Part shown: piece after piece, positions 2,424-14,141 of the stretch
Position numbering within the stretch: the first letter of the stretch is position 1
How the letters are laid out: each line of letters starts with the position of its first letter
Assembly (NCBI GenBank): GCA_964385005.1
Contig: CAYLMF010000003.1
Coordinates: 3,521-40,557 of the forward strand
Source of the DNA: an uncultured Bdellovibrionales bacterium
GTDB lineage: Bacteria; Patescibacteriota; Minisyncoccia; Moranbacterales; UBA1568
Direction of reading: 5' to 3'
DNA length: 37,037 nt
Translations under genes and position numbers: made by a program
The notes under the pieces: model-generated
What the model was told of the DNA's origin: nothing
The model's database searches: none
What the model saw: only the letters and a program-made list of their open reading frames with translations

Positions 2424-3275
2424 TTAGTGTTGGCAGGTAGTGCAGAAAAAAACACTGCGCTGTGCCATTTTGGCTCTTTTGATAATTGTACCACATTTCT
2501 TGCAGGGCTCATCTGTCCTTCTATAGACAAACAAAGCCTTCTTGAACTTGCCAGGCTGCCCATCAAGATCACGAAAGTCTCCGTCTGTAGTACCGTGCAG
2601 TCGCACTGCTTCACGGAGTACTTTTTTGACAGCCTGGAGCAATTCTTTAGATTCTGCTTTAGTAATTTTGGTAATTTTTCGTGTCGGCAAAATACCCGCC
2701 AAGAAGAGCGCTTCACTTCGATAGATATTGCCTATCCCTGCGATCAGATTTTGCTCAAGGAGCACCGGCCCTATGGCTTTGGTTTTCCGAGTACCGAGAA
2801 TAGTACGAAAAGTCTCTTCTGTAAGACGCGAAGAAAGTGCGTCTATTCCAAGAGCCTGAATAGCTGGCAGTTCCTCTACTCGAGTCTTCTCGATCAAAGC
2901 CAGCCAGCCAAACTTCCGCATATCAGAAAACTCCAGCGTGGTCTTATCCGAAAAAGTGAAAATATGATGGATATATCCGTTGACTCTGTCTTCCGTAAAT
3001 ATAGGGTCATCTTTGGTCTTAGGTGTTTTGTAGAGAAAGTGTCCCGTCATCTTGAGATGCACTACTATAGCGTATTCATTATCAAGCTCTATCACAATAT
3101 GCTTACCGTAACGCTTCGTACTCACAATAGATGCGCCATGGACACCTTGCTGAAATTCCCTGACTCCAGGCATAACCTTTTTTGGCCAACCACTCCAAAA
3201 GTCAGTAATTGTTTTGCCTACAACCTTTTGGCCTAATTGGGTGACAACCGTCTGCACTTCTGGTAATTCTGGCAT
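2424..3275 (-). CDS. mutM: Formamidopyrimidine-DNA glycosylase
   Basis: The protein starts with the canonical MPELPEV (catalytic Pro2/Glu3). It has an H2TH region (IAGIGNIYRSEALF) and a C-terminal zinc finger (CKKCG...FFCTTCQ). Confidence 0.92.
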   Translation of the reverse strand: MPELPEVQTVVTQLGQKVVGKTITDFWSGWPKKVMPGVREFQQGVHGASIVSTKRYGKHIVIELDNEYAIVVHLKMTGHFLYKTPKTKDDPIFTEDRVNGYIHHIFTFSDKTTLEFSDMRKFGWLALIEKTRVEELPAIQALGIDALSSRLTEETFRTILGTRKTKAIGPVLLEQNLIAGIGNIYRSEALFLAGILPTRKITKITKAESKELLQAVKKVLREAVRLHGTTDGDFRDLDGQPGKFKKALFVYRRTDEPCKKCGTIIKRAKMAQRSVFFCTTCQH

Positions 3276-3295
3276 AGTACTGGCTCTTATTATCT

Positions 3296-3324
3296 ATTGA
3301 CAAAATATAATATTTATGCTATAC
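3296..3324 (+). promoter_or_regulatory. Near-consensus sigma70-type promoter facing the plus strand
   Basis: TTGACA (3296-3301), a 17-nt spacer, then TATACT (3319-3324). The spacer contains the palindrome AAATAT-A-ATATTT. The promoter sits about 35 nt upstream of the ATG at 3359. Confidence 0.6.
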
Positions 3325-3358
3325 TCGACATTACGACTCAAAACAGGGAACCTTAACA

Positions 3359-3754
3359 ATGATCGTGCGCTTTATCACCGTCAGCCAAGGGAGTGTTCGT
3401 CAGACCTTCCGTATGGACACCGACGATCTTTCTGAGGTCTTTCGACTGTATCAGGAAGGTCATCACTGGAATCGTATTGCTTTTGGCGGAATGACCTCCC
3501 TTGGTCGTTCTGGCATAGCCATTGATTTCCGGGACCGTATCGTGGTCAGTGGCCACAAAATCGACCCCATCCCCTCGGAACTGCTCAATCTCGTTGAGCA
3601 CTTTGATGACTTCTCCGAAGCCATCAAGAAACTCTCCGAGGGTGGCGACGTCTTGATCCGGGGTGATGATAACAATCTCATCCTTTTCAAGTGGAACGGC
3701 CATCAGTCCGCACTTGAAGTCTTTGGACTTGGCGACGACAATGAACCCGCATAA
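3359..3754 (+). CDS. Hypothetical 131-aa protein (strand call is ambiguous; see findings)
   Basis: The ORF lies between a consensus promoter and a strong intrinsic terminator, with AGGGA 9 nt upstream of the ATG. Its codon choice (cgt, ctc/ctt, ggt/ggc, atc) matches the clear housekeeping genes here. The codon-complementary minus-strand ORF instead uses aga, acg, ccg, gga and ggg. I recognise no family. Confidence 0.5.
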   Translation: MIVRFITVSQGSVRQTFRMDTDDLSEVFRLYQEGHHWNRIAFGGMTSLGRSGIAIDFRDRIVVSGHKIDPIPSELLNLVEHFDDFSEAIKKLSEGGDVLIRGDDNNLILFKWNGHQSALEVFGLGDDNEPA

Positions 3755-3791
3755 AGTCCTCGACCTCGCTCGAGGCGCAAACCGCCCTCCG

Positions 3792-3833
3792 GGACCCTCT
3801 CTAGCAAAACTGCTAGTTGAGGGTCCTTTTTTT
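3792..3833 (+). terminator. Intrinsic terminator, plus-strand orientation
   Basis: GGACCCTC (3792-3799) pairs with GAGGGTCC (3819-3826). An inner CTAGCA/TGCTAG extension closes an AAAC loop, and TTTTTTT follows (3827-3833). No T-run follows the hairpin on the minus strand, so it should act only on plus-strand transcripts. Confidence 0.75.
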
Positions 3834-4313
3834 ATACTCTTCCCAATCTTTTTGCGAGAACTTTCCAAGCGGTTTAAACGACTCTGCGGCAACACCTCCA
3901 ACAAAACCAACTACTCCATAAAATCGTTTTTGCTTTCCTGTAATTCTCGGCTCTATCTGTACATTTTTTGGATCAATTTCCATAACGTACCGTGACTGAC
4001 CTTCTGGTAGGTAAGGGCCAATTCCAATAGTCCCCGCTATAAAAGAAAATCTTCTTCCTGTTTTTACATCCTGCTTAGGCACAAAATGAATCCCATATTT
4101 CATCACTTCCTCTGCAAACTCTTCTGGTATGGTGATGATTGGATTGATATTATTTTTAAGACATTCTGCTATAAATTCTCTGGCTTCATCGGCATCTTCT
4201 AGCCCCTCTTTGTGAACAAGGTCTATCTCAGAGTATATATCTGAAGAATTTTCTAGGCTTTCTTTTTTAGGTGTTGGCACATTCAAAAAATCAAATCTTT
4301 CCATAAAATACAC
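3813..4313 (-). CDS. Hypothetical protein (166 aa)
   Basis: This long ORF lies downstream of polA on the same strand. It starts at a GTG at 4313 with AAGG 5 nt upstream; an alternative ATG is at 4304. Its last codons run through the hairpin and T-run of the plus-strand terminator. I recognise no motif. Confidence 0.55.
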   Translation of the reverse strand: MYFMERFDFLNVPTPKKESLENSSDIYSEIDLVHKEGLEDADEAREFIAECLKNNINPIITIPEEFAEEVMKYGIHFVPKQDVKTGRRFSFIAGTIGIGPYLPEGQSRYVMEIDPKNVQIEPRITGKQKRFYGVVGFVGGVAAESFKPLGKFSQKDWEEYKKRTLN

Positions 4314-4324
4314 TACTACCTTTA

Positions 4325-6934
4325 TTAAATTTCACCCCAATTTTTACCCACACTTACCTCAACAGTAAGTGGCACACTGATAGTATACACACTCTCCAAC
4401 ACTTCCTTCAGTCGAGAGGCAAACGCATCTGCCTTTTCTTCTTTGACTTCAAAGATGAGTTCATCATGCACCTGGAGCACTGGGTAAACCTCACCTTCTC
4501 CAAACTCTTTCACGAGGTCCATAGTCTTCAGCATCGCAAGTTTCACGATATCCGCTTCCAATCCCTGGATAGGCATGTTGACAGCCATGCGCTCACCCGC
4601 TTTCATCACCTGGTTATTGGTGCTTTGAATTTCTGGCACATGGCGGCGGCGACCGAGTTCTGTTTCTACATAGCCAGTTTCTTTGGCGGCCTTGAGTGCC
4701 TGATCAATATACGTGCGTACACCAGAAAAGGTCTTGAAGTAGGTGTTGATAAATTCCTTGGCTTCCGCCTGAGTGATAGAGGCAGCAGCGGCTAAACCAA
4801 AGGCACCCATGCCATACATAATACCGAAGTTAAAGACCTTGGCCTGACGACGCATATCATAGGTCACTTCTTCTGGCTGGACTTTGTAGACAGTGGCAGC
4901 CGTAATAGTATGTACATCTTCATTTTTTCTGTATGACTCCAAAAGGGCTTTATCCTGACTCAAGTGTGCCATGATACGAAGTTCTATCTGAGAGTAATCT
5001 GCCCCTACTAGGAGGTAGCCTGGGGTGGCCTCGAAAGCCTGGCGGATCTCCTCGCTCCATTCGCTCCTGGCAGGGATGTTTTGGAGATTAGGGTTAATAG
5101 AAGAAAGTCTCCCTGTAGCTGCGATGGTTTGCTGATAGGTGGTATGGAGACGTGATTCACTGTCTGTCAGCGTCGGTAAAGCGTCGAGATACGTAGACTT
5201 CAGTTTAAAAATCTCTCGATACGATTCTATCTTGGCGGCGATTGGATACTCTCCGAGTTTCTGAAGTTCACTTGAGGCAGTCGAGATGCCCGTCTTGTTT
5301 TTCTTGATAAAGTCAGTTGGAATTTTGAGATCCACAAAAAGTACTTCTGCCAACTGCTTTGGTGAATTGATATTAAACTCTCTGCCAGCCAGCAGGTAGA
5401 TTTGCTTAGCCAATTCCTCGATAGCCGTACTCAGACGATTCGCCATATCGGCAAAACTACTCAGGTTGAGGATAATGCCCCGCTTTTCCATAACGTAGAG
5501 CACAGGAATAAGCGGCATTTCTATTTCATCAAAAACAGTTCGGATGCTTTTGGTTTTATCTTGATTACTACTTACTTCATCGAGTTTGGCATCGAGATTT
5601 TTCCAAAGCTCAAAGACGAGTTCTGCTTTGTTTTCTTTACTTTCATGAAGGACTGCCTCGCCAGCACCTGCAAGCGTACCGTCTGTAGAAACCTCTACCA
5701 TATAGAGGGCGAGGGTGATATCAAATACTCCGTTGGTAATTTCTATCCCCTCTTTGCCAAGAGCATGCATGGCGCGCTTGAGATCATACCAGCCTGTCTT
5801 GATACTCTTGTCTCCGAGAAGCTTCACAAGAGTCGCTTTGGTATCTTCGTTTATTTCTACTCGATAGCTTTCGCCCTTCTCGGTGCAAAGCTCAAGAGCT
5901 ACTAGATGAGCTCCAAACAAAGAGTCTTCACTTATTTCAATTTCACACGCAAGCTTCGTATTAGAAAAGTTCTCAAGCAACGGTATCTCTTCACTTATCT
6001 TGATATTCTTAATCTTTGTTTTTTTGGTTGACTTCTTCTGCTCCGCTTCATGATTGATAACAATTTCTCCAGGAAGACGCTTAAGTAAGCTGTAGAATTC
6101 ATACTCCCGAAGAAAGGCTTCCGCTCGCGGGCGATCATAGTCATTGATCTTCATCGCTTCTTCATCGATAGCAATATCCACGTCTACTTTGATAGTTCCA
6201 AGAATGCGTGAGAGAAAAGCCTGATCTTTATCTCGCTCGAGATTTTCGAGAAGCTTACCTTTGAAATCCTCAAGATGGGCATAGATTCCCTCGATGTTAC
6301 CGTACTTCTGAATCATGGTGGTAGCGGTCTTCTGGCCTACACCTTTCACGCCAGGAATATTGTCTGAGCTGTCTCCAGCCAGACCCTTGTACTCAATCAA
6401 TTGTGAAGGGAGAAATCCATACTTAGCCGCTACTTCAGCTGGACCATAGAGCACGGTATCCTTGATGCTTTTACGCATCGTGAATACTTTTACCTGTTCA
6501 TCCACAAGCTGCAGCGTATCTGTATCTCCAGTCACAATAATCACATCATAACCCTTGTTCTTGGCTTGGACTGAGAGTGTACCTACAAGGTCATCTGCTT
6601 CAAAGCCTTCCTTCTCATAAATAGGGATTCCAAAAGCCTCTACCATTTCCTTGATAATTGGTATCTGACTATAGAGGTCATCTGGAGCAGCTTCACGATG
6701 AGACTTGTACTCCTCATAAAGGTCATCACGGAAGGTTCCGCCCGGAAGATCAAAGGTGGCAATGATGTTTTCTGGATTGAACTTCTCAATGACCGAGAAA
6801 AGAGTCAGAGCAAAACCGTAGACCGCGTGCACTGTCTCTCCGGTCTTAGTAGTTAGCGGTGGGAGACCATGATAGGCACGATGAAGAATAGCGTTTCCAT
6901 CGAGCAATATGACTGTTTTTGGCTTGTTTTTCAT
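4325..6934 (-). CDS. polA: DNA polymerase I
   Basis: The 869-aa protein has an N-terminal 5'-3' exonuclease/FEN domain (ILLDGNAILHRAYH, GDSSDNIPGVKGVG). Family A polymerase motifs are present: motif A (VGADYSQIELR), motif B (RRQAKVFNFGIMYG) and motif C (QVHDEL). Confidence 0.95.
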   Translation of the reverse strand: MKNKPKTVILLDGNAILHRAYHGLPPLTTKTGETVHAVYGFALTLFSVIEKFNPENIIATFDLPGGTFRDDLYEEYKSHREAAPDDLYSQIPIIKEMVEAFGIPIYEKEGFEADDLVGTLSVQAKNKGYDVIIVTGDTDTLQLVDEQVKVFTMRKSIKDTVLYGPAEVAAKYGFLPSQLIEYKGLAGDSSDNIPGVKGVGQKTATTMIQKYGNIEGIYAHLEDFKGKLLENLERDKDQAFLSRILGTIKVDVDIAIDEEAMKINDYDRPRAEAFLREYEFYSLLKRLPGEIVINHEAEQKKSTKKTKIKNIKISEEIPLLENFSNTKLACEIEISEDSLFGAHLVALELCTEKGESYRVEINEDTKATLVKLLGDKSIKTGWYDLKRAMHALGKEGIEITNGVFDITLALYMVEVSTDGTLAGAGEAVLHESKENKAELVFELWKNLDAKLDEVSSNQDKTKSIRTVFDEIEMPLIPVLYVMEKRGIILNLSSFADMANRLSTAIEELAKQIYLLAGREFNINSPKQLAEVLFVDLKIPTDFIKKNKTGISTASSELQKLGEYPIAAKIESYREIFKLKSTYLDALPTLTDSESRLHTTYQQTIAATGRLSSINPNLQNIPARSEWSEEIRQAFEATPGYLLVGADYSQIELRIMAHLSQDKALLESYRKNEDVHTITAATVYKVQPEEVTYDMRRQAKVFNFGIMYGMGAFGLAAAASITQAEAKEFINTYFKTFSGVRTYIDQALKAAKETGYVETELGRRRHVPEIQSTNNQVMKAGERMAVNMPIQGLEADIVKLAMLKTMDLVKEFGEGEVYPVLQVHDELIFEVKEEKADAFASRLKEVLESVYTISVPLTVEVSVGKNWGEI

Positions 6935-6970
6935 ATTTCAATTATACTCTCTGGCTCTATAAAGGGGAAA

Positions 6971-7714
6971 TTAGTACTTCTTCCACACCATTTCAAATAT
7001 TTGCCTCAAAGCCTTAGCTACATCTTCATTCTCTATAGCCATGCCCTGCAGGTTCTTGTAATCCTCTATCCGCACTAAATCACCTGTTACGGTAATAGCT
7101 ACTTCTGAGGAATAGTCTTTGGTAGAAATTTGCTTAATGTTTCGCCCGTACGCTTGGTCGGTCTGACGATAGCCCTCGAGCTGCTCATCTGCTGGCGCCA
7201 AGCCTCGCATCCGAATACTGTGCCGCTGCATTTTCTTGGGGTACTCTTCCTTGAAGTATTCTGTCAGTTCTGGTGAAGCATTCTTATCCGTAGCCCAAAA
7301 ACCAAGCATTTCCTCTCCCGCATGCTCCTTAAATCTATACTCAAGCATTTGCTTCATACCTTCTGTACCTTCAAAGTAGAGAGCGCTCACCTTATTCTTC
7401 TTACCTTTGGCCATGGCCAAAATCTCAGGCAAAAAAGCTCTTGCTTGAGAGAGCTCGTGTGAAGCTCGGGCAAAGGCCTCCTCAGGAGTACGAGCTACAT
7501 AGTGCTGGGTCTTCATCTGAGAAACCTTGAGCACCAGGCCTTTTTCAATCAGCTCATCCAATATGACATAGGTAGTAGGCTTTTTGAGACCACTCTTCAC
7601 CGCCACCCTATATGCAGTAGACTGGCCCAACTGCAAAAGAGCCGCGTAGACCGCTACTTGCTTATCGTTGAGACCAAGTGTTTTGAGCGCTTCTTCTATG
7701 TTCATAGACTTCAT
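6971..7714 (-). CDS. TrmB-family (winged-helix) transcriptional regulator
   Basis: The N-terminus LKTLGLNDKQVAVYAALLQLGQSTAYRVAVKSGLKKPTTYVILDELIEKGLV is the typical TrmB-type HTH. The track ORF starts at a TTG at 7741. In-frame ATGs at 7714 (preceded by GAGAG) and 7705 are more likely starts. Confidence 0.7.
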   Translation of the reverse strand: MKSMNIEEALKTLGLNDKQVAVYAALLQLGQSTAYRVAVKSGLKKPTTYVILDELIEKGLVLKVSQMKTQHYVARTPEEAFARASHELSQARAFLPEILAMAKGKKNKVSALYFEGTEGMKQMLEYRFKEHAGEEMLGFWATDKNASPELTEYFKEEYPKKMQRHSIRMRGLAPADEQLEGYRQTDQAYGRNIKQISTKDYSSEVAITVTGDLVRIEDYKNLQGMAIENEDVAKALRQIFEMVWKKY

Positions 7715-7830
7715 GGTACTCTCTTTTTCATATTTAGTCAATATTTTTGATGAATATTTTGTATTATATTATTTATGCTTTATATAAAGTATATTATACG
7801 AATATATGAGATAAATACTAGACATTATTA

Positions 7831-7859
7831 TTGACTCTTTGTCACAAAAAGGGTATACT
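7831..7859 (+). promoter_or_regulatory. Near-consensus sigma70-type promoter (P1 of the small-gene island)
   Basis: TTGACT (7831-7836), a 17-nt spacer, then TATACT (7854-7859). The spacer contains CACAAAAAGGG. The inverted repeat TCACA-N12-TGTGA (7842-7863) overlaps the -10 element. Confidence 0.65.
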
Positions 7860-7916
7860 GTGATGTTGAGTTGAGCAATCACTCACAAACGTTCTTTTCA
7901 CAAACAGGGGGTCACC

Positions 7917-8174
7917 ATGTATCTAGTTATTTCAAAAAAGGCAGATGTATTCTTCGGTGGATTTGAGTACGGACTCTTCGACAAGGAGTTCCCTTCCACC
8001 GAAGAAGCTCTCGTCTGGGTCAGAGAACGTATGAGCCGAGAAGCTCAGGCAAGGCTCACGAGTGACTACCCAGTGTTCCAGTCATTCACCACCTACAAAA
8101 TATTTTCGGAGGTCCAAATCGAAAGTATCGAAAAGGATCCCGAGGATATCTGGGACCAGGGCATAGAGCCCTAG
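7917..8174 (+). CDS. Hypothetical small acidic protein (85 aa)
   Basis: The ATG is preceded by AGGGGG (7906-7911) at 5-nt spacing and lies downstream of P1. The stop is followed 11 nt later by the repeated hairpin. I recognise no family. Confidence 0.6.
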   Translation: MYLVISKKADVFFGGFEYGLFDKEFPSTEEALVWVRERMSREAQARLTSDYPVFQSFTTYKIFSEVQIESIEKDPEDIWDQGIEP

Positions 8175-8183
8175 TTCCTAAAC

Positions 8184-8224
8184 TTGGCAGAAGTGTCTCA
8201 TCGTATTCACTTCTGCCCTCCATT
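8184..8224 (+). repeat. Copy 1 of a 41-nt perfect direct repeat containing a 10-bp hairpin
   Basis: TTGGCAGAAGTGTCTCATCGTATTCACTTCTGCCCTCCATT. GGCAGAAGTG (8186-8195) pairs with CACTTCTGCC (8208-8217) around a 12-nt loop. It is identical to 8709-8749. No T-run follows it. Confidence 0.9.
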
Positions 8225-8615
8225 AAGTCTTGAAAAATATTCAAGACTTATAGAGAAACCGTTCTTTCAAAAAGGAGTTGATTAATCGTAAAAAATGTAT
8301 ATATCCAATGATAAATTATTCATTTATCACATGGATAAACTCACATGATGCGCCTTCGTCGTATCTGTCGTCATTTGGGACGCGTACATCGTGGTCTTGA
8401 AATGGCATCCACGGTCCTCGGACTGTGGATCATACTACGAGATCTTCTCTAGTATGGGCGGGGTGTTTGAGTTTCAACCTGGCAACAGAATGGAAGCTCC
8501 AGGGAACGTGACAACCTGAACCAATAGTCACTCTGGGAAAGTATGTAAACACATACTTCTCCCCTCAACTGAATGCATTACATGGTGTAGTGCATTCTGA
8601 GAGGGAGTAACAAAA

Positions 8616-8705
8616 ATGGCAGCAGCAAACAGTGGTTCAGTTGGTCGCGGCAAACCATTCAGGGTGACCGAGGAGGAAAAACCTCCTGAGACCAAACCTC
8701 TATAA
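8616..8705 (+). CDS. Candidate micro-ORF (29 aa: MAAANSGSVGRGKPFRVTEEEKPPETKPL)
   Basis: The ATG is preceded by GGGAG (8603-8607) at 8-nt spacing. The TAA stop lies 5 nt before copy 2 of the repeated hairpin, the same geometry as the 85-aa gene and copy 1. It is too short for the ORF track and is unverified. Confidence 0.35.
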   Translation: MAAANSGSVGRGKPFRVTEEEKPPETKPL

Positions 8706-8708
8706 TCT

Positions 8709-8749
8709 TTGGCAGAAGTGTCTCATCGTATTCACTTCTGCCCTCCATT
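8709..8749 (+). repeat. Copy 2 of the 41-nt perfect direct repeat / hairpin
   Basis: It is identical to 8184-8224, with stem arms at 8711-8720 and 8733-8742. The downstream sequence ATAGAGA..CGTTCTT..AAAC..AGGGGG is also partly shared with copy 1 and with the 5' UTR of the gene starting at 7917. Confidence 0.9.
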
Positions 8750-8812
8750 GAGACTATGACTTCTGTCAGAGTTTCATAGAGATCTCGTTCTTAAACAAAC
8801 CAGGGGGATATC

Positions 8813-8995
8813 ATGCTGAAACAGCTATTTCTTTTCTCGACAGCACAAGCTGTTTTCGTTTTCCTTGTCATGTATTACATGATGGAGAAAATCGTTCCCA
8901 TTCTCACCGCTACCGGAGGATTAGCGTTCGTATCCTCCACTTCATTGAGATTGCAAGCTTCTTGTTATTTCATAGAGTATAGAAGGTTTTTCTAA
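8813..8995 (+). CDS. Hypothetical small membrane protein (60 aa, two hydrophobic segments)
   Basis: AGGGGG (8802-8807) lies 5 nt before the ATG. The sequence LFLFSTAQAVFVFLVMYYMM ... ILTATGGLAFVSS suggests two TM helices. Confidence 0.55.
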   Translation: MLKQLFLFSTAQAVFVFLVMYYMMEKIVPILTATGGLAFVSSTSLRLQASCYFIEYRRFF

Positions 8996-9039
8996 GGCGT
9001 TTATTTGCATGTGGACGCTTTAGATAAGCCTTTCTACTA

Positions 9040-9068
9040 TTGACTTATACACAAAAAGGGTGTATAAT
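9040..9068 (+). promoter_or_regulatory. Near-consensus sigma70-type promoter (P2 of the small-gene island)
   Basis: TTGACT (9040-9045), a 17-nt spacer, then TATAAT (9063-9068). The perfect inverted repeat TATACAC-N7-GTGTATA (9046-9066) overlaps the -10 element. The spacer shares CACAAAAAGGG with P1. Confidence 0.65.
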
Positions 9069-9122
9069 ATAAAGTCACAGTAGTAATTTCACTCCTGTCA
9101 CAAAATTCCAAGGGGAATATGA

Positions 9123-9326
9123 ATGCAGCGCGTTAAAAAGTTTTTTACCTGGCTTTGGAAGACCTTTTGGGGTTTTCCTGTTTGGGTCAAGATTGCCCTC
9201 ACTTTCTTCATCGCCATGAAGATCAATCCTTCGGCGGCTGTTAGCCTCCTTATGATCGGGGTTTGCCTCTGGGCCATCCGGCACATGTGCCGGAGCCTCA
9301 TCCCAAAGAAAGGCAAGAAGAAATAA
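9123..9326 (+). CDS. Hypothetical small membrane protein (67 aa, Trp-rich, two TM segments, Lys-rich tail)
   Basis: AGGGGA (9111-9116) lies 6 nt before the ATG, and the gene is downstream of P2. The sequence reads FFTWLWKTFWGFPVWVKIALTFFIAM ... VSLLMIGVCLWAI ... KKGKKK. A hairpin terminator follows it. Confidence 0.6.
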   Translation: MQRVKKFFTWLWKTFWGFPVWVKIALTFFIAMKINPSAAVSLLMIGVCLWAIRHMCRSLIPKKGKKK

Positions 9327-9351
9327 CTTGAGCCAACGTGCTCACAAAAAG

Positions 9352-9385
9352 GCCGCCCATCGCAACTGCGATTCGGGCGGCTTTT
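9352..9385. terminator. Bidirectional intrinsic terminator shared by the 67-aa gene (+) and the metalloprotease-like gene (-)
   Basis: GCCGCCC (9352-9358) pairs with GGGCGGC (9375-9381), with an inner ATCGC/GCGAT stem. AAAAA lies 5' of the hairpin and TTTT lies 3' of it. Confidence 0.7.
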
Positions 9386-10309
9386 CTATTGTGCGAGTTT
9401 TTTAATTTTAGAAGCGATTTCCAGAAAGACTTTTTTAGCACTGGCTGTATCAAGAATTTCATGAAATGCCATCACAATCGGTCCAAGCTCCAAAAATTTG
9501 GTATCTGCTCTCGCCAATCTCGCAACAAACTTATCCGAAAAAACCTCATTCAAAAGATCAGCCACTTCTCCATTGAGTAAGTCAGTGCCACTTAAGTACT
9601 CTCGTACTACTGATTGCCACACCACTTCTTTTGGTATGCCGCACTCTTCTCCAAGTCGTTCACAAAAGGTCCTGACAAAAATCCTTGCCAATGGATATTT
9701 AGAATCATATTTTTTCTCTTCGCCCGAACCTGAGCGACGCACGTATTCTTGATAGACTACGGAAGCAAGCTCATCTGTCACCCCCTCGTTGAACCAGCGT
9801 AACTTTGTATCTGACTTCATTATAAGCGAACCCTTCGTTTCGATATTTTGTTGATCAAAACCAATTTGCACTTTGATACTGCCTTTTTTCATAAGAGAAA
9901 GTAGGGCGTCGTCTTGCTCTTCTTCATAATGACTGTACGAAACAGCATGTGCTTCCTCGTGACATATCATTTCAAGTACCAAATCTTTAGCGTCTTTTTT
10001 ATCCCGTGTCGCCAGCACTTCTGCCATGAGTGTGTGTATGGTAATTTTTTTGTCTTTCGCCGAATACCAACCACCTGCAAGTGGACTCTTGAACGCTGGA
10101 GGATCCTTTATGATATCTTTTTCCTCTACGAAATTCATTTGTTCAGAATCAAGTCCGCTGCGACGAACGTGTTCTGCAAAAATTTCACGAAGCTCATGAA
10201 AATCTATCCACTCAAATGATTCCCTATTTTCCAATCTGTCAGGTCTTTTTTGATTTTTTTCACCAGCTGACGGCGGCATTTCAAACATCTTATTCATACG
10301 CTGGTACAT
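9386..10309 (-). CDS. Putative zinc metallopeptidase (HExxH, gluzincin-like), otherwise uncharacterised
   Basis: It has an HEEAH motif (EMICHEEAHAV) and a downstream FNEGVTDE that resembles the thermolysin-type NExxSD third zinc ligand. There is no signal peptide. Its start overlaps the end of tsaE by 20 nt. Confidence 0.5.
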   Translation of the reverse strand: MYQRMNKMFEMPPSAGEKNQKRPDRLENRESFEWIDFHELREIFAEHVRRSGLDSEQMNFVEEKDIIKDPPAFKSPLAGGWYSAKDKKITIHTLMAEVLATRDKKDAKDLVLEMICHEEAHAVSYSHYEEEQDDALLSLMKKGSIKVQIGFDQQNIETKGSLIMKSDTKLRWFNEGVTDELASVVYQEYVRRSGSGEEKKYDSKYPLARIFVRTFCERLGEECGIPKEVVWQSVVREYLSGTDLLNGEVADLLNEVFSDKFVARLARADTKFLELGPIVMAFHEILDTASAKKVFLEIASKIKKLAQ

Positions 10310-10739
10310 TGCAGGTAATTTTTCGTTCGTCTTCTCCTTCTTGCTCGAGATTGATATCTATTCTTTTCTCTGGCAATACCTCTGGTACGCGCTCTGGCCA
10401 CTCAAGAATCACAAGTCCTTTCGGATCACTACACCACTCCTCAAATCCTAAGTGTTCGATATCTTTTGTTTCTATTCGATACGCATCTATATGGTATACC
10501 CGACTAATACCTGATTCAGTCGGTACTGGAAGAGTATACTCTTTCATAATGACAAATGTGGGGCTCGTATAAGGTCCTTCGGCACCAAGGCCTTCGAGAA
10601 TACCCTGAGTGAGCGTCGTCTTGCCTGCCCCAAGATCCCCAGAAAGACAAAGGCTCACGCCAGGAAGAAGATCTTTGGCTAACTCTTGCCCAAAATCCTT
10701 TGTTTCCTGATTATTATGCGTAATCTGTATATTTTTCAT
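10290..10739 (-). CDS. tsaE: tRNA t6A37 threonylcarbamoyl-transfer ATPase TsaE (YjeE)
   Basis: The Walker A context LSGDLGAGKTTLTQGILEGLG, then SPTF and HIDAYR, together with the 149-aa size, are characteristic of TsaE. Confidence 0.85.
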   Translation of the reverse strand: MKNIQITHNNQETKDFGQELAKDLLPGVSLCLSGDLGAGKTTLTQGILEGLGAEGPYTSPTFVIMKEYTLPVPTESGISRVYHIDAYRIETKDIEHLGFEEWCSDPKGLVILEWPERVPEVLPEKRIDINLEQEGEDERKITCNVPAYE

Positions 10740-10852
10740 ATTTTCATCCTAGCCTGGACAAGCATATTTGGCGAGAGCCTGGTTCTTTTTCCTTGACGTA
10801 AGGCTTTTTCCTTGCTATTTTTGATTATTCATCTAAACCCATTATCTCTGCC

Positions 10853-11992
10853 ATGTCCCTCAATCTTGCTCAACAATTCGAAGAACTTCTCCAAAAAGCT
10901 ACTCATCCGCTTATTATTGTCACTCCCCACGCTTCCCTCGATGCTGTCTCAACTGCTGTAGCATTGGCTCTTTTCTTTGAAAAAATTGGCAAGAAGGCTA
11001 CCCTCGCTGGTGACACTCTCACAAAAGACCTTGAAAGCCTCGCTATTCTTGATAAACCAGAGAATATCCGCGAATCTATCACAGCTTCTCGTGACTTCGT
11101 GTTGGCATTCAATACAGAATACAACAACATTGTCAGTATCAAATCAGAGCGACTACCCAAAGAGTTTCGTATCTACCTCACGCCAGAGAAGGGTACGATT
11201 GATCCCCGTGATTTTTCTTTTATCCCCGCTCAATTTATTTTTGACTTAGCTATTGTTCTTGGCGCTCATGACAAAGAACACTGCGGCAAAATCTACGAAA
11301 GTGATCCTGACATTTTCTTTGAAATGCCTGTCGTCAATATTGACAATCAGCCCGCCAACGAAAATTTTGGTCAATTTAATGCTATCGATCTCAAGGCCTC
11401 TTCTTTGGCTGAGATAGTCGCTGATCTCTTTCTTGCATCTAAGGCAGGCGCCCTACCAGACGTTATGGCGCTTCCGCTCCTTACTGGTATTATCGCTGCT
11501 ACTGATAGCTTTCAGAAAAAAAACACGACTCCAAAATCTCTCCAGCTCGCTTCTGTCCTCATGCAGATGGGTGCTGACCAACAACGTATCATTCGCTCAC
11601 TCTACAAGACTCAACCCCTTCACCTCATTAAGCTCTGGGGTAAAGCTATGGCGCAGATCAAATCAGCCCCTAAACTCGACCTCGTCTGGTCACTTGTCAC
11701 CACCGAAGATATCGTCCATGCTCGCGCTGAAGCAGATGATCTCCCTCTTATCCTTGAAAAAATTAAGGCCAACTCTTCTCAGGCGAAATTTTTTGCCCTT
11801 CTTTCTCCAGAAAATTCTACTACCGTACGGGTTCTCATCAAAAGCGTATCCAAAGAGGCACTTGATGTACTGGTTCAGCACATTCCCGAGAGCACACTCC
11901 TCGGTGATACGCTCATGTTCCTTCTTCTTGCAGGTAGCCTCGAAGAAGCTGAGCAAATCCTTTTTGAAAAACTCGAGGTGGCTCTTTTGTAA
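10853..11992 (+). CDS. DHH-family phosphoesterase-like protein (NrnA/RecJ-like fold), catalytic motifs apparently degenerate
   Basis: The overall layout resembles NrnA: IIVTPHASLDAVSTAVALALFF at the motif I position, GIIAATDSFQ at the GIxTDTGxF position, and a C-terminal DHHA1-like part. Several conserved Asp/His residues appear to be replaced. Confidence 0.5.
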   Translation: MSLNLAQQFEELLQKATHPLIIVTPHASLDAVSTAVALALFFEKIGKKATLAGDTLTKDLESLAILDKPENIRESITASRDFVLAFNTEYNNIVSIKSERLPKEFRIYLTPEKGTIDPRDFSFIPAQFIFDLAIVLGAHDKEHCGKIYESDPDIFFEMPVVNIDNQPANENFGQFNAIDLKASSLAEIVADLFLASKAGALPDVMALPLLTGIIAATDSFQKKNTTPKSLQLASVLMQMGADQQRIIRSLYKTQPLHLIKLWGKAMAQIKSAPKLDLVWSLVTTEDIVHARAEADDLPLILEKIKANSSQAKFFALLSPENSTTVRVLIKSVSKEALDVLVQHIPESTLLGDTLMFLLLAGSLEEAEQILFEKLEVALL

Positions 11993-12031
11993 AGACTTCC
12001 CAGTTTGTCCTCAGAGTAGTCACGCGCTACA

Positions 12032-13804
12032 ATGAAGGAAAACAAACCTATGGTTAAAGTAGTCAAACAATCTCCTTCTGACGAAGGCTCAAAAGAAAGT
12101 GTCGGCGATTTCTTGCAAAAAATTGATTCCTCCTCTCGAGAAAGTGAGGTGGAACGCCTCGCTCATTCAGTAGGGCTTCCCTACATTGACCTTTCTCTTT
12201 TTCCTGTTGATGGTGACCATATTCGCTCTTTTCCTGAAGATTTAGCAAAAGATACTTCTTCTGTACTTTTTCAAAAAGAACGTGGTATCTACCGTATAGG
12301 ACTGACACAAAACGATGACTCTCTCAAAGAAAAAATTCTCACCTATACCAAAGAACGCGAACAAGAAGTAAAATTCTATCTCATTTCCAATGCCTCTCTC
12401 GAGCGTGGCTGGGAAGAATACAGCAAAAAGCCCTTTATAGAACACCTCGATCAAATGAAAGTCAGTCTTTCCAAAGAAGACTTAGCTACCTTTGGTAAGG
12501 AGTTTGATGACCTCCTTTCACTCAAAAATAGCCTCTCGGACCTTCCTACTACCAAGGTGCTTGAAATTATTTTAGCGGGAGCCAATCGTCTACGTACCAG
12601 TGATATCCATATTGAACCAGAGGCAGGCGACGTAAGACTACGCTATCGTATTGACGGACTCCTTGAGGATATCGCTCATATCCCATCTGATGTCTATCAC
12701 CTGACACTTTCTCGAGTAAAAATGCTCGCCAAGATGAAGCTCAATGCCAGTACACGAGCTCAAGACGGTAGCTTTTTCATTATGAAAGATGGCGAACGCA
12801 TAGATATTCGTGTCAGCATTATCCCTACCAATCAAGGAGAGACTATCAACATGCGTCTCCTCAATAGCGCCGAGGCTGATGTGCCGCTTGAAACCCTGGG
12901 TCTTCGCGGCGAAGCCCTCCTTGAAATCAAGCGTCAAATCAAAAAGCCCCACGGCATGATAGTCAATACAGGACCGACTGGTTCTGGTAAAACAACTACC
13001 CTCTATAGCTTGATTCGGGAAATAAACGAGTCTTCTGTCAAAATTATCACTGTGGAAGATCCTATTGAATACATCCTTCCTGGGGTAGTGCAAACCGCTG
13101 TCAATAATGATGACTCCTACACCTTTGGCCAGGCTCTCCGCGCTATAGTACGTCAGGATCCAGACGTTATCCTCGTTGGAGAAATTCGTGACGAAGAAAC
13201 AGCAGAGGTAGCAGTCAATGCTGCCCTTACTGGCCACCTTGTGTTTACTACCCTTCATACCAACGATGCTCCTGCCTCTATAGTCCGCCTCGGTGAACTT
13301 GGTATCAAGGGCTCTCTTATAGGTAGTGCGGTTAATATCTTTATTGGTCAACGCCTCGTGCGCGTCCTCTGTAAAAAGTGTCGTGAAGCCTACGCGCCTG
13401 CTCCTAAGACCATAGCCGCTCTCCAAAAAATTCTTGCTACCATTCCTTCTAGTACAGGCATTCATGTACCTGAAACCATCACTACTCTCTACAAGCCAGT
13501 TGGTTGTGCTGAATGTCATTTTTCTGGCTATCGTGGTCGCCAAGGAATCTTTGAGGTCTTTCCGGTAACTGATGCTATTGCCGCAATTATTGATAATTTT
13601 GCTACCGAAAACGAAATTCGTCAGGCCGCTATCAAAGAAGGCATGCTCACTATGAATCAAGATGGTTTACTCAAAGTTGTTGAGGGTATCACCACCTTCC
13701 AAGAAGTCTGGCGTACTACCGGTAGAGATGAAGCGCTCGAAAGTCTCTACGAAGATATCTTAAGCGATCCATCCCTCAAAGAAACTCCTCCTACAAAAGA
13801 ATAA
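12032..13804 (+). CDS. pilB: Type II secretion / type IV pilus assembly ATPase (GspE/PilB family)
   Basis: It has an N-terminal T2SSE_N-like region, a Walker A motif (GPTGSGKTTT), Asp/His boxes (DPDVILVGEIRD, TGHLVFTTLHTN) and a tetracysteine motif (CKKC...CAEC). An alternative start is Met7 at 12050. Confidence 0.9.
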   Translation: MKENKPMVKVVKQSPSDEGSKESVGDFLQKIDSSSRESEVERLAHSVGLPYIDLSLFPVDGDHIRSFPEDLAKDTSSVLFQKERGIYRIGLTQNDDSLKEKILTYTKEREQEVKFYLISNASLERGWEEYSKKPFIEHLDQMKVSLSKEDLATFGKEFDDLLSLKNSLSDLPTTKVLEIILAGANRLRTSDIHIEPEAGDVRLRYRIDGLLEDIAHIPSDVYHLTLSRVKMLAKMKLNASTRAQDGSFFIMKDGERIDIRVSIIPTNQGETINMRLLNSAEADVPLETLGLRGEALLEIKRQIKKPHGMIVNTGPTGSGKTTTLYSLIREINESSVKIITVEDPIEYILPGVVQTAVNNDDSYTFGQALRAIVRQDPDVILVGEIRDEETAEVAVNAALTGHLVFTTLHTNDAPASIVRLGELGIKGSLIGSAVNIFIGQRLVRVLCKKCREAYAPAPKTIAALQKILATIPSSTGIHVPETITTLYKPVGCAECHFSGYRGRQGIFEVFPVTDAIAAIIDNFATENEIRQAAIKEGMLTMNQDGLLKVVEGITTFQEVWRTTGRDEALESLYEDILSDPSLKETPPTKE

Positions 13805-13810
13805 AACAAA

Positions 13811-13837
13811 AAACTCCTCTTAATAGAGGAGTTTTTG
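13811..13837 (+). terminator. Intrinsic terminator after pilB
   Basis: ACTCCTCT (13813-13820), a TAAT loop and AGAGGAGT (13825-13832), followed by TTTTT. Confidence 0.75.
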
Positions 13838-14098: not shown

Positions 14099-14141
14099 GA
14101 TTTATCTATTTTTTCTTTTATCTAGGCCATAAACCATCTCT

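What the first reader, a model, noticed from the sequence alone, without database searches (positions are those of the whole stretch)
8183..8812. Duplicated intercistronic module: a 41-nt perfect repeat with a 10-bp hairpin placed right after two stop codons
Positions 8184-8224 and 8709-8749 are identical (TTGGCAGAAGTGTCTCATCGTATTCACTTCTGCCCTCCATT). Each copy forms GGCAGAAGTG / CACTTCTGCC around a 12-nt loop. One begins 11 nt after the stop of the 85-aa gene and the other 5 nt after the stop of the 29-codon micro-ORF.

Neither copy is followed by a T-run. The five clear intrinsic terminators elsewhere in this window all have one.

Downstream of each copy there is a second, non-identical hairpin (AAGTCTTGA-N7-TCAAGACTT at 8225-8249; CTATGA..TCATAG at about 8754-8779). 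A shared ATAGAGA..CGTTCTT..AAA..purine-rich SD stretch then follows, which also resembles the 5' UTR of the gene starting at 7917 (7887-7916).

The whole unit of stop codon, hairpin and next ribosome-binding site therefore looks duplicated. It could be an RNA processing or stabilising site, a protein- or RNA-binding element, or the footprint of a small mobile or recombining cassette.
Basis: seen in the sequence. Interest (0 to 1): 0.65.

Follow-up and report, generated by a model that had tools for sequence, protein, structure and literature searches.

The report
Two-hairpin RNA spacer between small genes
The duplicated 41-base hairpin is the first half of a conserved two-hairpin RNA element that separates the small, fast-changing genes of one operon in many ultra-small (CPR, Moranbacteria-type) bacteria. 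It is missing from RNA catalogues, and it most likely marks where the long messenger is cut and protected and where transcription is kept going into the next gene.

Summary
In detail: 8184-8224 and 8709-8749 are identical and form a 10-bp hairpin.

The repeat is only the first hairpin (hp1) of a roughly 75-nt module. In this module hp1 abuts a CUC..GAG-closed second hairpin (hp2). When another gene follows, a GUUCUUU tail that resembles the boxA consensus comes next.

- **Copies in the window:** there are four, all on the + strand: M1 8182-8255, M2 8531-8603, M3 8707-8781 and M4 8910-8977. The own genome has no others.
- **Wider family:** a covariance model built from these copies finds the same architecture in 94 of 319 genomes of the order. 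The copies usually form same-strand arrays between unrelated small ORFs beside a TrmB-type regulator gene.
- **Structure support:** 22 of 24 pairs covary, and G.U outnumbers A.C by 100 to 9, so the fold belongs to the sense-strand RNA.
- **What it is not:** Rfam 15 has no match, and it is not a tRNA, attC site, REP element or U-tract terminator.
- **Hammerhead clue:** one array carries a hammerhead-like ribozyme hit (below Rfam's threshold, catalytic core intact) where hp1 would sit.

The best reading is an intercistronic mRNA "punctuation" element. The hairpins would serve processing and stabilisation, and the tail would serve Nus-type read-through. Recombination between copies explains both the perfect identity and the gain or loss of cassettes. 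No transcript-end data could be obtained, so the function is inferred.

The parts
6971..7741 (-). TrmB-family wHTH regulator gene, divergent from the small-gene operon
   Evidence: Pfam PF01978, E = 2e-13. TrmB-family genes lie beside module arrays in five other genomes as well.
7831..7859 (+). Promoter P1 (TTGACT-N17-TATACT) of the array
   Evidence: Consensus scan gives 10 of 12 matches. The site is conserved in G015 and G230.
7889..7895 (+). boxA-like GTTCTTT in the primary 5' leader, after a small hairpin (7860-7882)
   Evidence: Sequence read. The same hairpin-plus-G(U/A)(U/A)CUUU leader follows similar promoters in other genomes of the genus.
7917..8174 (+). 85-aa orphan ORF (cassette 1)
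   Evidence: ORF listing. It is 89% identical in G015 and is replaced by an unrelated 174-aa ORF in G230. No Pfam family matches.
8182..8255 (+). Module M1. hp1 stem is 8186-8195 with 8208-8217, and the outer helix is CUC 8218-8220 with GAG 8253-8255. hp2 is 8224-8250. M1 contains repeat copy 1 (8184-8224).
   Evidence: The minimum-energy fold shows the two-hairpin architecture. Covariance-model scores are 76.4 bits and 85.3 bits.
8261..8271 (+). M1 tail GTTCTTTCAAA, boxA-like (1 mismatch to GYTCTTTAANA)
   Evidence: The consensus comes from PMC5725501.
8272..8530 (+). Long structured leader between M1 and M2. It has no convincing gene, and a 35-codon frame (8345-8452) lacks a ribosome-binding site. 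The stretch from about 8405 to 8530 is almost invariant between G000 and G015.
   Evidence: Alignment with compensatory and G.U changes. The upstream GGCAACAGAA and CCUG-AAC motifs are shared with long modules of other genera. An RNA-seq contig covers 8246-8396.
8531..8603 (+). Module M2, a degenerate copy. The 3' strand of its outer helix overlaps the ribosome-binding site of the micro-ORF.
   Evidence: Covariance-model scores are 30.2 bits, E = 1e-6, and 61.7 bits with R2. It aligns with the clear copy in G230. Stem changes relative to G015 are compensatory.
8616..8705 (+). 29-codon micro-ORF (MAAANSGSVGRGKPF...), a real conserved gene flanked by M2 and M3
   Evidence: Changes relative to G015 are synonymous. 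Relatives occur in six genomes of two families, and each is directly followed by a module.
8707..8781 (+). Module M3. hp1 stem is 8711-8720 with 8733-8742, and hp2 is 8749-8776. The outer helix is CUC 8743-8745 with GAG 8779-8781. M3 contains repeat copy 2 (8709-8749).
   Evidence: Fold. Covariance-model scores are 101.6 bits and 93.8 bits. Orthologues in G015 and G230 carry compensatory changes.
8787..8797 (+). M3 tail GTTCTTAAACA, boxA-like (1 mismatch)
8813..8995 (+). 60-aa hydrophobic ORF (a cassette present in G000 and absent from G015 and G230)
   Evidence: ORF listing. The indel is bounded by the TTTCATAGAG 3' ends of M3 (8772-8781) and M4 (8968-8977).
8910..8977 (+). Module M4, a degenerate terminal copy without a tail. 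It lies inside the 3' end of the 60-aa ORF.
   Evidence: Covariance-model scores are 28.5 bits, E = 3e-6, and 47.2 bits with R2.
9040..9068 (+). Promoter P2 (TTGACT-N17-TATAAT) for the 67-aa membrane ORF (9123-9326). The operon ends at the terminator at 9350-9378.
   Evidence: Consensus scan gives 11 of 12 matches. The ORF and terminator were read in the sequence. The 67-aa ORF is conserved in G015 and G230.

Best explanation
**What it is.** The 41-nt repeat is hairpin 1 of a transcribed, sense-strand RNA junction module. The module layout is hp1, a zero- or one-base joint, CUC, NAU, hp2, UA, GAG. Where another gene follows, 4-5 bases and then a GUUCUUU(A)AA tail come next. The module punctuates a TrmB-linked operon of unrelated small genes.

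**How it works (inferred).**
- The long P1 transcript is cut at or next to each module, by RNase Y or RNase III, or in rare variants by a resident hammerhead.
- The two stable hairpins then cap the new ends. hp1 and hp2 block 3' exonucleases on the upstream cistron, so each cassette's mRNA has its own stability.
- The boxA-like tail belongs to the leader of the next cistron. It re-loads NusB/S10-type elongation factors so that RNA polymerase continues through the untranslated, hairpin-rich joint.

**What is shown directly.**
- The structure is conserved and specific to the sense strand.
- The position between cistrons is constant.
- The element belongs to a family spread across the order.
- The required enzymes are present in the genome.

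**What is inferred.**
- Cleavage, protection of ends and Nus factor loading have not been observed.
- A second-order effect is supported by comparison. The repeated modules recombine with each other. Gene conversion made M1 and M3 identical in this lineage, and unequal exchange between M3 and M4 adds or removes the 60-aa cassette.
For: **Architecture.** All eight clear copies in three species fold on their own into the same two-hairpin shape.

**Covariation.**
- On 9 local copies, 93% of cells pair against 45-49% for slid controls, and 11 of 24 pairs change on both sides.
- On 47 distinct copies from 12 other genomes, 94.2% pair against 40-59% for slid controls, and 22 of 24 pairs are compensatory.

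**Strand.**
- G.U plus U.G pairs number 100, against 9 A.C plus C.A.
- The sense strand is the more stable in 58 of 68 copies, p = 2e-10.
- This points to RNA rather than duplex DNA or the bottom strand.

**Position.** Of 68 modules, 56 have a ribosome-binding-site-led ORF ending a median of 8.5 nt upstream. Likewise 56 have one starting a median of 53 nt downstream.

**Hairpins and tail are separable.**
- Terminal modules with no following gene (G000 M4, G015 M3, G230 M3) keep the hairpins but lose the tail.
- The tail alone sits in primary leaders.
- So the hairpins act as a 3' element and the tail acts as a leader element.

**Tail and boxA.**
- The tail is within 1 mismatch of GYTCTTTAANA in 16 of 68 copies against 0.4% of background windows.
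- It is within 2 mismatches in 39 of 68 against 2.3% (consensus from PMC5725501).
- The rrn leaders of this order carry a related GA(A/C)CUUUAACAA after hairpins.

**Hammerhead.** A type III hammerhead-like hit with an intact catalytic core takes the place of hp1 in one array. It scores 37.4 bits, below Rfam's gathering score of 48.5. It is followed by a short hairpin, CAUCGAG and the tail.

**Enzymes.** RNase Y (634 bits), RNase III (231 bits) and NusB (117 bits) are encoded in the genome.

**Terminators.** No U-tract follows the module, while the genome uses canonical terminators elsewhere.

**Recombination.**
- M1 equals M3 in G000, but the two copies differ at 7 of 41 positions in G015.
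- The cassette indel is bounded by module 3' ends.
- Near-identical pairs are common within other arrays.
Against: - **No transcript ends:** none could be mapped.
- **Weak RNA hint:** the 151-nt RNA-seq contig starting at 8246 could be PCR duplicates.
- **Unexplained conservation:** plain exonuclease blocks need no conserved sequence. Yet GG..AA/UU..CC in hp1, UCUC, the AAU/UA internal loop and the closing GAG are conserved. This suggests a specific partner that I cannot name.
- **Hammerhead seen only once:** it appeared in one of about 35 loci examined.
- **rrn boxA differs:** the organism's own rrn boxA differs from the tail at two positions (GAAC against GUUC).
- **No Rho:** tblastn did not detect Rho, which removes the usual reason for Nus-type antitermination.
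- **Variable spacing:** the distance from stop codon to module ranges from 1 to 140 nt.
Confidence: 0.45

Rival explanations
1. The whole module is a nut-like processive antitermination site. In this reading hp1 and hp2 play the boxB role and the tail is boxA. RNA polymerase is modified at the leader and again at every joint, as in rrn leader and spacer regions. No RNA cleavage is involved.
For: - The tail matches the boxA consensus far above background.
- The order hairpin(s) then boxA is the same as in the rrn leader of this genome.
- The same motif sits in the primary 5' leader and in other promoter-proximal leaders of the genus.
- NusB is present.
Against: - The hairpins persist without any tail at array ends and at M2, so they have a role of their own.
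- The rrn boxA of these organisms is GA(A/C)CUUUAACAA, not GUUCUUU.
- Rho was not detected, and no intrinsic terminators lie inside the array that would need to be overridden.
- The strongly covarying hp2 and the conserved internal loop are not features of known boxB elements. This last point rests on my own knowledge.
Confidence: 0.2
2. The module is the operator of an unidentified RNA-binding protein, or a structure that sequesters the ribosome-binding site. It would set the translation of the next cistron, by translational coupling or repression.
For: - Conserved nucleotides inside helices and in the internal loop suggest sequence-specific recognition.
- The 3' arm of hp1 plus the linker is pyrimidine-rich and resembles the anti-Shine-Dalgarno sequence (CUUCUCCUCUC).
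- In M2 the outer helix pairs CCCCUCA with the micro-ORF's ribosome-binding site, UGAGAGGG.
- The fold of the M1 unit pairs CCUCC with the downstream GGAG.
Against: - The distance to the next start codon varies from 2 to 173 nt.
- Terminal modules have no downstream gene.
- The GGAG-like 5' arm of hp1 is not kept in this genome (GGCAGAAG).
- The tail does not covary with hp1.
- No candidate protein is linked to the arrays apart from the DNA-binding TrmB regulator.
Confidence: 0.1
3. The module is a DNA-level recombination site of an integron-like gene-cassette platform that has no integron integrase. Cassettes would be captured, excised and shuffled at the joints.
For: - Copies form same-strand arrays of short, mostly orphan, promoterless ORFs behind one promoter, each ORF followed by a structured repeat. 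The arrays lie beside a divergent conserved gene.
- Gene content differs between sister species exactly at module joints.
- The micro-ORF cassette is shared by two families, with host-specific module sequences.
- Near-identical module pairs occur within arrays.
Against: - No integron integrase reaches the cut-off in 8 array-bearing genomes, and no recombinase lies next to the arrays.
- No RYYYAAC / GTTRRRY core sites were found by inspection.
- The fold is selected on the coding strand with many G.U pairs. Integron attC sites, by contrast, recombine as folded bottom strands (my own knowledge).
- All observed rearrangements are explained by ordinary homologous recombination between 70-nt repeats.
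Confidence: 0.07
4. The module is a leaky terminator or attenuator without a U-tract, or one that depends on a factor. It would step transcription down along the array.
For: - Stable hairpins (-25 to -37 kcal/mol per module) lie right after stop codons.
- A U-rich GUUCUUU sits 4-5 nt further on.
- Terminal modules lie just before the next promoter (P2 in G000; L105).
Against: - The bases directly after the helix are A-rich (GAG-AAA) rather than U-rich.
- The genome uses canonical GC-hairpin plus U-tract terminators.
- Downstream cassettes have no promoters of their own, so efficient termination would silence them.
- The tail is also found in primary leaders where nothing needs terminating.
Confidence: 0.08

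Closest known systems
Intercistronic stem-loops that give segmental mRNA stability (REP-type stabilisers, selective RNA processing and stabilisation operons, phage T7 RNase III sites). Named from my own knowledge.
   Same: Hairpins without a U-tract lie just after stop codons inside a polycistronic mRNA. They are expected to end up at the 3' end of the upstream cistron after endonuclease cleavage and exonuclease trimming.
   Different: Here the element is a fixed two-hairpin architecture with conserved nucleotides. It forms a family conserved across an order of bacteria, is tied to one kind of locus (TrmB-linked variable arrays), and is coupled to a boxA-like tail. It is not dispersed in the genome as REP elements are.
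rrn and lambda nut antitermination sites (boxB hairpin plus boxA, bound by NusB-S10). The boxA consensus GYTCTTTAANA is from Baniulyte et al. 2017, PMC5725501.
   Same: Hairpin(s) are followed within a few bases by GUUCUUUAA. The arrangement recurs in the leader and at internal spacers of a long operon. NusB is present.
   Different: The two hairpins are conserved and persist without the tail. The operon encodes small proteins rather than rRNA. The organisms' own rrn boxA reads GA(A/C)CUUUAACAA. Rho was not detected.
PeSL (promoter-early stem-loop) regulatory cassettes of T4-type phages (Arbiol et al. 2010, PMC2839356)
   Same: Short repeated stem-loop cassettes flank small orphan genes in hyperplastic regions. 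Recombination between the cassettes causes insertion, deletion and replacement of genes between close relatives (compared).
   Different: PeSLs carry a sigma-70 promoter and act as effective terminators at the DNA and transcription level. The module here has neither promoter nor U-tract and shows RNA-type covariation. The common variant was not found in viral contigs.
Integron attC arrays and CALIN clusters
   Same: Both are co-oriented arrays of short promoterless cassettes, each with a structured repeat, expressed from one promoter next to a divergently transcribed conserved gene. In both, the repeats are homogenised within a host.
   Different: No integron integrase was found. There are no R and L boxes. 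The fold is on the sense strand. The neighbouring gene is a TrmB-type regulator rather than a recombinase.
Bacterial intergenic hammerhead (type III) ribozymes, Rfam RF00008
   Same: In one array (G164) a hammerhead-like hit (37.4 bits, below Rfam's gathering score of 48.5, catalytic core intact) occupies the hp1 position. It lies upstream of the same hp2-end and tail motifs, which suggests an equivalent RNA-cutting role.
   Different: The module has no hammerhead core and matches no Rfam ribozyme model. Self-cleavage of the module is untested.

Membership tests
Integron attC site / cassette array | Integron integrase (IntI) in the genome or next to the array | tested here: not met
   TIGR02249 scores at most 131 bits against a cut-off of 265 in 8 array-bearing genomes. 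The hits are Xer-like genes on other contigs, and G015 has none.
Integron attC site / cassette array | R''/R' core sites (RYYYAAC ... GTTRRRY) at the base of one long imperfect hairpin | tested here: not met
   By inspection the module is two separate hairpins. Its ends read YGG... and ...UAGAG, and GTTCTTT has pyrimidines where purines are required.
Integron attC site / cassette array | Structure selected on the bottom (non-coding) strand | tested here: not met
   On the coding strand G.U plus U.G pairs number 100 against 9 A.C plus C.A. The sense strand is the more stable in 58 of 68 copies.
Integron attC site / cassette array | Co-oriented array of short promoterless ORFs, each followed by the repeat | tested here: met
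   Twelve arrays with 2-6 same-strand copies spaced 240-970 nt apart. The window holds 4 copies.
REP / BIME / MITE-type dispersed repeat | Many copies dispersed at unrelated intergenic sites of one genome | tested here: not met
   The exact pattern gives 2 copies. The covariance model gives 4 copies in the own genome, all in this locus.
Intrinsic (Rho-independent) terminator | G+C-rich hairpin immediately followed by a U-tract | tested here: not met
   The module is followed by GAG-AAA, and the scan does not call either copy as a terminator.
nut-like antitermination site (boxA + hairpin) | boxA sequence matching GYUCUUUAANA a few bases from a hairpin | tested here: met
   The tails of M1 and M3 each have 1 mismatch. 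Across the family, 16 of 68 copies are within 1 mismatch against 0.4% of background windows.
nut-like antitermination site (boxA + hairpin) | Same boxA as the organism's rrn leader or spacer | tested here: inconclusive
   The rrn leaders of G000 and five relatives carry a related boxA-like motif ending in CUUUAA; four of the six (G000, G015, G091, G088) read GAACUUUAA. It shares G..CUUUAA with the tail but differs at positions 2-3.
nut-like antitermination site (boxA + hairpin) | NusB/NusE binding and terminator read-through | not testable with these tools
   NusB is encoded (PF01029, 117 bits). Binding and function need experiments.
Known Rfam families, including self-cleaving ribozymes | Match to a curated covariance model | tested here: not met
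   No module matched at gathering score or at relaxed E-values, in the window or in about 35 loci.
tRNA / tRNA-like element | Cloverleaf recognised by ARAGORN | tested here: not met
   ARAGORN found no tRNA in 17 loci carrying modules.
PeSL regulatory cassette | Strong sigma-70 promoter joined to a terminator stem-loop | tested here: not met
   No promoter-like hexamer pair lies in or beside M1-M4, and there is no U-tract.
PeSL regulatory cassette | Repeats flank orphan genes and mediate modular shuffling between close relatives | tested here: met
   The cassette indel is bounded by the 3' ends of M3 and M4. The first cassette is replaced in G230.
Intercistronic processing / stabiliser hairpin (SRPS type) | Stable hairpin at the 3' end of a cistron inside a polycistronic transcript | tested here: met
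   The hairpins are retained at array ends.
Intercistronic processing / stabiliser hairpin (SRPS type) | Mapped processing sites and differential stability of segments | not testable with these tools

The most novel reading that the evidence does not exclude
The hp1-hp2 unit, with its conserved internal loop and tail, may be a previously unrecognised RNA-cleavage element. It could be a new class of self-cleaving ribozyme, or the recognition site of a dedicated CPR endoribonuclease. In either case it would be functionally interchangeable with a hammerhead ribozyme. The TrmB-linked arrays it punctuates would then be an integrase-free platform in which exchangeable small genes each bring or acquire a standard RNA joint.
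Probability: 0.1. Interest if true: 0.9.

Novelty: new variant of a known kind. Interest (0 to 1): 0.66.

Why it matters
CPR (Patescibacteria) bacteria have tiny genomes, yet about 30% of the genomes in this order keep a fast-changing array of orphan small genes beside a conserved TrmB-type regulator. Every joint of that array carries the same covarying RNA module.

- **An uncatalogued RNA motif:** it is abundant in the lineage, its structure is well supported, and it has clear sequence hallmarks. That makes it directly testable by in vitro cleavage, RNase Y/III digestion, NusB-S10 binding and reporter assays.
- **How foreign cassettes are expressed:** if the module processes or insulates cistrons, it explains how unrelated cassettes can be expressed from one promoter in organisms with minimal regulatory machinery.
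- **A practical marker:** the module can be used to find these variable arrays, whose products may mediate symbiont-host interactions.
- **A possible new RNA-cutting element:** if the hammerhead equivalence holds, the module could reveal a new one.

Tried and rejected
**Searches that came back negative**
- **Dispersed REP/MITE element:** rejected. The genome has 2 exact copies and 4 model copies, all in one locus.
- **Exact-pattern searches elsewhere:** the search of 185,579 species genomes found only the two sister species, and the other matches look like chance. The JGI metagenome search found only chance-like single matches.
- **tRNA-like element:** rejected.
- **Rfam families, including hammerhead, twister, pistol and hatchet:** no match to the module.
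- **attC / integron:** rejected. There is no IntI, there are no core sites, and the fold is on the wrong strand.
- **Phage origin:** the common variant is absent from IMG/VR viral contigs.
- **Literature:** searches on Moranbacteria or Patescibacteria with RNA motif, ribozyme or attC found nothing relevant.

**Ideas dropped on inspection**
- **Sigma-54 promoter inside hp1 (TGGCAG...):** the GG-N10-GC spacing is not met.
- **CRISPR-like or ToxI-like array:** the spacing of 200-970 nt, with genes in between, does not fit.
- **Tandem duplication of whole genes:** the ORFs upstream of M1 and M3 are unrelated.
- **Pairing of the GUUCUUU tail with the 5' arm of hp1 (a riboswitch-like alternative fold):** the tail stays constant when hp1 changes, so there is no covariation.
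- **hp1-specific homogenisation within arrays:** not supported. hp1 and hp2 are similarly a little more alike within arrays than between them.
- **Extra hammerheads in other arrays:** none in about 32 further loci.

**Data that could not be obtained**
- **Transcript evidence:** the RNA-labelled runs gave only assembled contigs. These were a 646-nt contig of a 91% variant spanning 8188-8833, and a 151-nt contig at 8246-8396.
Full report
**1. Observation**

- Window 8184-8224 and 8709-8749 are identical over exactly 41 nt.
- Each copy forms a 10-bp stem with a 12-nt loop. The energy is -16.3 kcal/mol, z = -5.6, and none of 200 shuffles folds as well.
- The stems begin 11 nt and 5 nt after the stop codons of the 85-aa ORF and the 29-codon ORF.
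- No T-run follows either copy, and the terminator scan ignores both.
- The own genome (G000: 833 kb, 71 contigs, 91% complete) has only these two copies, even allowing 3 mismatches.
- A degenerate hp1 pattern searched over 185,579 species genomes found true copies only in two sister species. These are JAHBAT020000003.1 (Candidatus Moraniibacteriota, here G015) and CAZQLN010000007.1 (here G230). The 32 matching stretches in the JGI metagenome collection are single, unrelated-looking matches.

**2. Anatomy: the 41-mer is half of a larger unit**

- Folding each copy with its downstream flank gives the same shape in all eight clear copies of the three species.
- In that shape hp1 directly abuts a short outer helix (CUC...GAG). 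The outer helix encloses a 3x2-nt internal loop (NAU / UA) and a second hairpin, hp2.
- hp2 differs in sequence between copies.
- A covariance model built from the three M3 orthologues recovers all of these copies.
- The operon therefore reads as follows:
  - P1 (7831-7859), then the leader, then ORF85
  - M1, then a structured leader
  - M2, then the micro-ORF
  - M3, then ORF60, whose 3' end contains M4
  - P2, then ORF67, then the terminator
- When a gene follows, a GTTCTT(T) motif lies 4-5 nt after GAG: 8261-8271 after M1 and 8787-8797 after M3.

**3. Sister species**

- G015 holds the orthologous locus at 82-83% identity. G230 holds a rearranged version.
- The stems change in a compensatory way:
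  - In hp1, U-A becomes C-G and A-U becomes G-C.
  - In hp1 of M2, AAGUAUGU/ACAUACUU becomes AAGCAU/AUGCUU.
  - In hp2 of M1, G-C becomes C-G, and two changes give U.G pairs.
- On the nine copies, 93% of cells pair against 45-49% when partners are slid. Eleven of 24 pairs change on both sides. That alignment was fitted to the model, which favours the structure somewhat.
- Gene content differs at the joints:
  - G015 and G230 lack ORF60. The indel is bounded by the TTTCATAGAG 3' ends of M3 and M4, as expected from unequal exchange between modules.
  - In G230 an unrelated 174-aa ORF replaces ORF85, M1 and most of the leader.
- The 41-nt identity is specific to this lineage:
  - In G015 the two copies differ at 7 of 41 positions.
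  - G000 differs from its G015 orthologues at 3 and 7 positions.
  - In assembled contigs of other strains, both copies stay identical for at least 33 nt.
  - In a 91% variant they differ by 3.
  - I read this as recent gene conversion, which is an inference.

**4. A family across the lineage**

- A second model, built from the nine copies, hits 94 of 319 genomes of the order at E <= 0.01, with scores up to 60 bits.
- The hits have the same architecture and conserved letters. The consensus is: nGGngAAg-loop-cUUcuCC-UCUC-aAU-hp2-UA-GAG.
- The hits are not tRNAs.
- They are usually clustered on one strand. Twelve fetched loci hold 48 copies, 2-6 per array, spaced 240-970 nt apart.
- On 47 distinct copies, 94.2% of cells pair against 40-59% when slid. 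Twenty-two of 24 pairs are compensatory.
- G.U plus U.G pairs number 100, against 9 A.C plus C.A.
- The sense strand folds better in 58 of 68 copies: -28.8 against -23.6 kcal/mol, p = 2e-10. The structure therefore belongs to the sense-strand transcript.
- Outside the order the motif is rare. It occurs in 12 other genomes of an evenly drawn class sample of 401, and in 3 genomes outside the class in a phylum sample of 401.
- It matches nothing in Rfam 15 at any threshold tried.
- My literature searches found no description of it.
- The common variant is absent from IMG/VR viral contigs.
- Notes from earlier agents of this scan describe the same kind of element in other CPR genomes. I treated those notes as leads only.

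**5. Context**

- Of 68 modules, 56 have a ribosome-binding-site-led ORF ending a median of 8.5 nt upstream. Likewise 56 have one starting a median of 53 nt downstream.
- The ORFs are mostly orphans. A few have receiver domains, and one array has two radical SAM genes.
- Arrays lie beside a TrmB-family regulator gene in the window and in five other genomes checked. In G164 the array also lies beside tsaE, as in the window.
- The micro-ORF is a real gene, since its changes are synonymous. It occurs in six genomes of two families, each time directly followed by a module whose sequence resembles the host's other modules.

**6. The tail**

- GTTCTT lies within 18 nt downstream of 30 of 68 modules, against 0.9% of background windows. 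It mostly sits at offset 4-5.
- It fits the published boxA consensus GYTCTTTAANA (PMC5725501):
  - Within 1 mismatch in 16 of 68 copies, against 0.4% of background windows.
  - Within 2 mismatches in 39 of 68, against 2.3%.
- M1 and M3 of the window each have one mismatch.
- Terminal modules (G000 M4, G015 M3, G230 M3) and M2 lack the tail.
- Conversely, the tail alone follows a small hairpin in the primary P1 leader and in leaders behind similar promoters elsewhere in the genus.
- So the hairpins behave as a 3' element of the upstream cistron, and the tail behaves as a leader element of the next one.
- The rrn leaders of G000 and five relatives carry a related motif ending in CUUUAA after hairpins. 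Four of the six read GAACUUUAA.
- NusB is encoded next to rnc.

**7. A hammerhead in the hp1 position**

- In G164's array, Rfam's type III hammerhead model gives a 37.4-bit hit, below the gathering score of 48.5.
- The catalytic core is intact: GUC, CUGAUGAG and CGAAAC.
- The hit is on the array strand.
- It is followed by a short hairpin, the array's own CAUCGAG module ending and a CGUUUUUUC tail. It therefore sits where hp1 would sit.
- No further hammerheads were found in about 32 other loci.

**8. Enzymes and exclusions**

- RNase Y (634 bits) and RNase III (231 bits) are present.
- No integron integrase reaches its cut-off in eight array-bearing genomes, and no recombinase neighbours the arrays.

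**9. RNA data**

- Many DNA metagenomes (wastewater, bioreactor, activated sludge) hold the locus. Their assembled contigs break at the repeat.
- One RNA-seq run has, in the first 20 kb of the window, only a 151-nt contig at 8246-8396. It starts inside the 3' arm of hp2 of M1. This is suggestive of a discrete abundant RNA but could equally be duplicates of one fragment.

**10. Mechanism**

- **Shown:** a conserved, sense-strand, two-hairpin RNA sits at cistron joints, and the hairpins and the tail are separable.
- **Inferred, and my preferred reading (about 0.45):** the module is an operon punctuation element.
  - Endonucleolytic cleavage occurs at or beside it, by RNase Y or RNase III, or by a hammerhead where one is present.
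  - The hairpins then protect the resulting ends and give each cassette its own mRNA stability.
  - The boxA-like tail re-loads Nus factors so that transcription continues.
- **Rivals:** a purely nut-like antitermination site (0.2), a protein or translation operator (0.1), a leaky terminator (0.08) and a DNA recombination site (0.07).
- **Under any reading:** recombination between modules is the best explanation for both the perfect 41-nt identity and the cassette differences.

**11. Verdict**

- The element is a member of an uncatalogued RNA motif family spread across the lineage.
- Its kind (an intercistronic cis-acting RNA, a regulatory cassette) is known. Its architecture, distribution and link to variable TrmB-side arrays are new.
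- The function still needs experiments.

Noticed in passing
L095:6919-6983 (- strand; G164:C3, same strand as its module array): A type III hammerhead-like hit scores 37.4 bits, below Rfam's gathering score of 48.5, but has a complete catalytic core. It sits at the first junction of a module array, in the place of hp1. It is followed by a short hairpin, CAUCGAG and a CGUUUUUUC tail.
   Followed up: partly
window 8616-8705; L104:1707-1766; L105 (oriented) about 3577-3681; G295:C5:619-696: The micro-ORF family MA(A/G)AN(S/T)GSxG(K/R)GK... occurs in six genomes of two families and is always directly followed by a module. In G003 (L104) it is followed by two radical SAM genes (1964-3376 and 4653-5615), which hints at a peptide-modification cassette.
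   Followed up: partly
window 8405-8530: This leader stretch is almost invariant between G000 and G015, with only about 4 changes. It contains the hairpin 8408-8431 with a G.U / A-U change. It also has GGCAACAGAA and CCUG-AAC motifs that recur upstream of 'long' modules in other genera, so it may be a 5' extension of the module (hp0).
   Followed up: partly
window 8583-8585: The loop of hp2 in M2 reads TGG in G000 and CCA in G015, on an otherwise conserved 12-bp stem. This is a small hairpin-loop inversion between sister species.
   Followed up: no
window 8246-8396: A public RNA-seq run (X25) holds, within window 1-20000, only a 151-nt contig here. The contig is 100% identical at depth 5.5. 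It may be a discrete abundant RNA beginning in the 3' arm of hp2 of M1, or a duplicated single fragment.
   Followed up: partly
window 8992-9023: A 9-bp inverted repeat, CTAAGGCGT-N14-ACGCTTTAG, lies about 15 nt upstream of the -35 element of P2. It is perfect in G015 and its right half is conserved in G230. It may be an operator, perhaps for the TrmB-type regulator.
   Followed up: no
window 7826-7859 and 9035-9068; L006, L009, L010, L005, L008: P1 and P2 share an extended promoter motif (ATTGACT..N..AAAAAGGGTrTAyAMT). Near-identical promoters occur in many genomes of the genus. In some (L005, L009, L010) a small hairpin and G(U/A)(U/A)C(U/C)UU then follow in the leader.
   Followed up: partly
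G000 contig C47:3992-4137 (outside the window): This is the rrn leader. The promoter is TTGACA-N17-TATATT. Two TTACTC-type hairpins follow, and then a boxA-like ACGAACTTTAACAATATG. The contig ends about 130 nt into the 16S gene.
   Followed up: yes
G000 contig C11:12806-14118 (outside the window): nusB lies directly upstream of rnc (RNase III), and part of the interval is masked (N). tblastn found no Rho homologue in the 91%-complete genome.
   Followed up: partly
L097 (oriented) about 4810-4880; L098, L099, L100, L087: A stretch encoding ...GKVNADNDYH... shows synonymous changes and is conserved across families f9 and f6. It lies just upstream of some modules, and its frame runs into hp1. It may be a conserved short cassette ORF.
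   Followed up: no
L095 (oriented) 1430-3020: About 1.6 kb between the TrmB gene and the hammerhead in G164 has no convincing ORF and no Rfam match. Its nature is unexplained.
   Followed up: no
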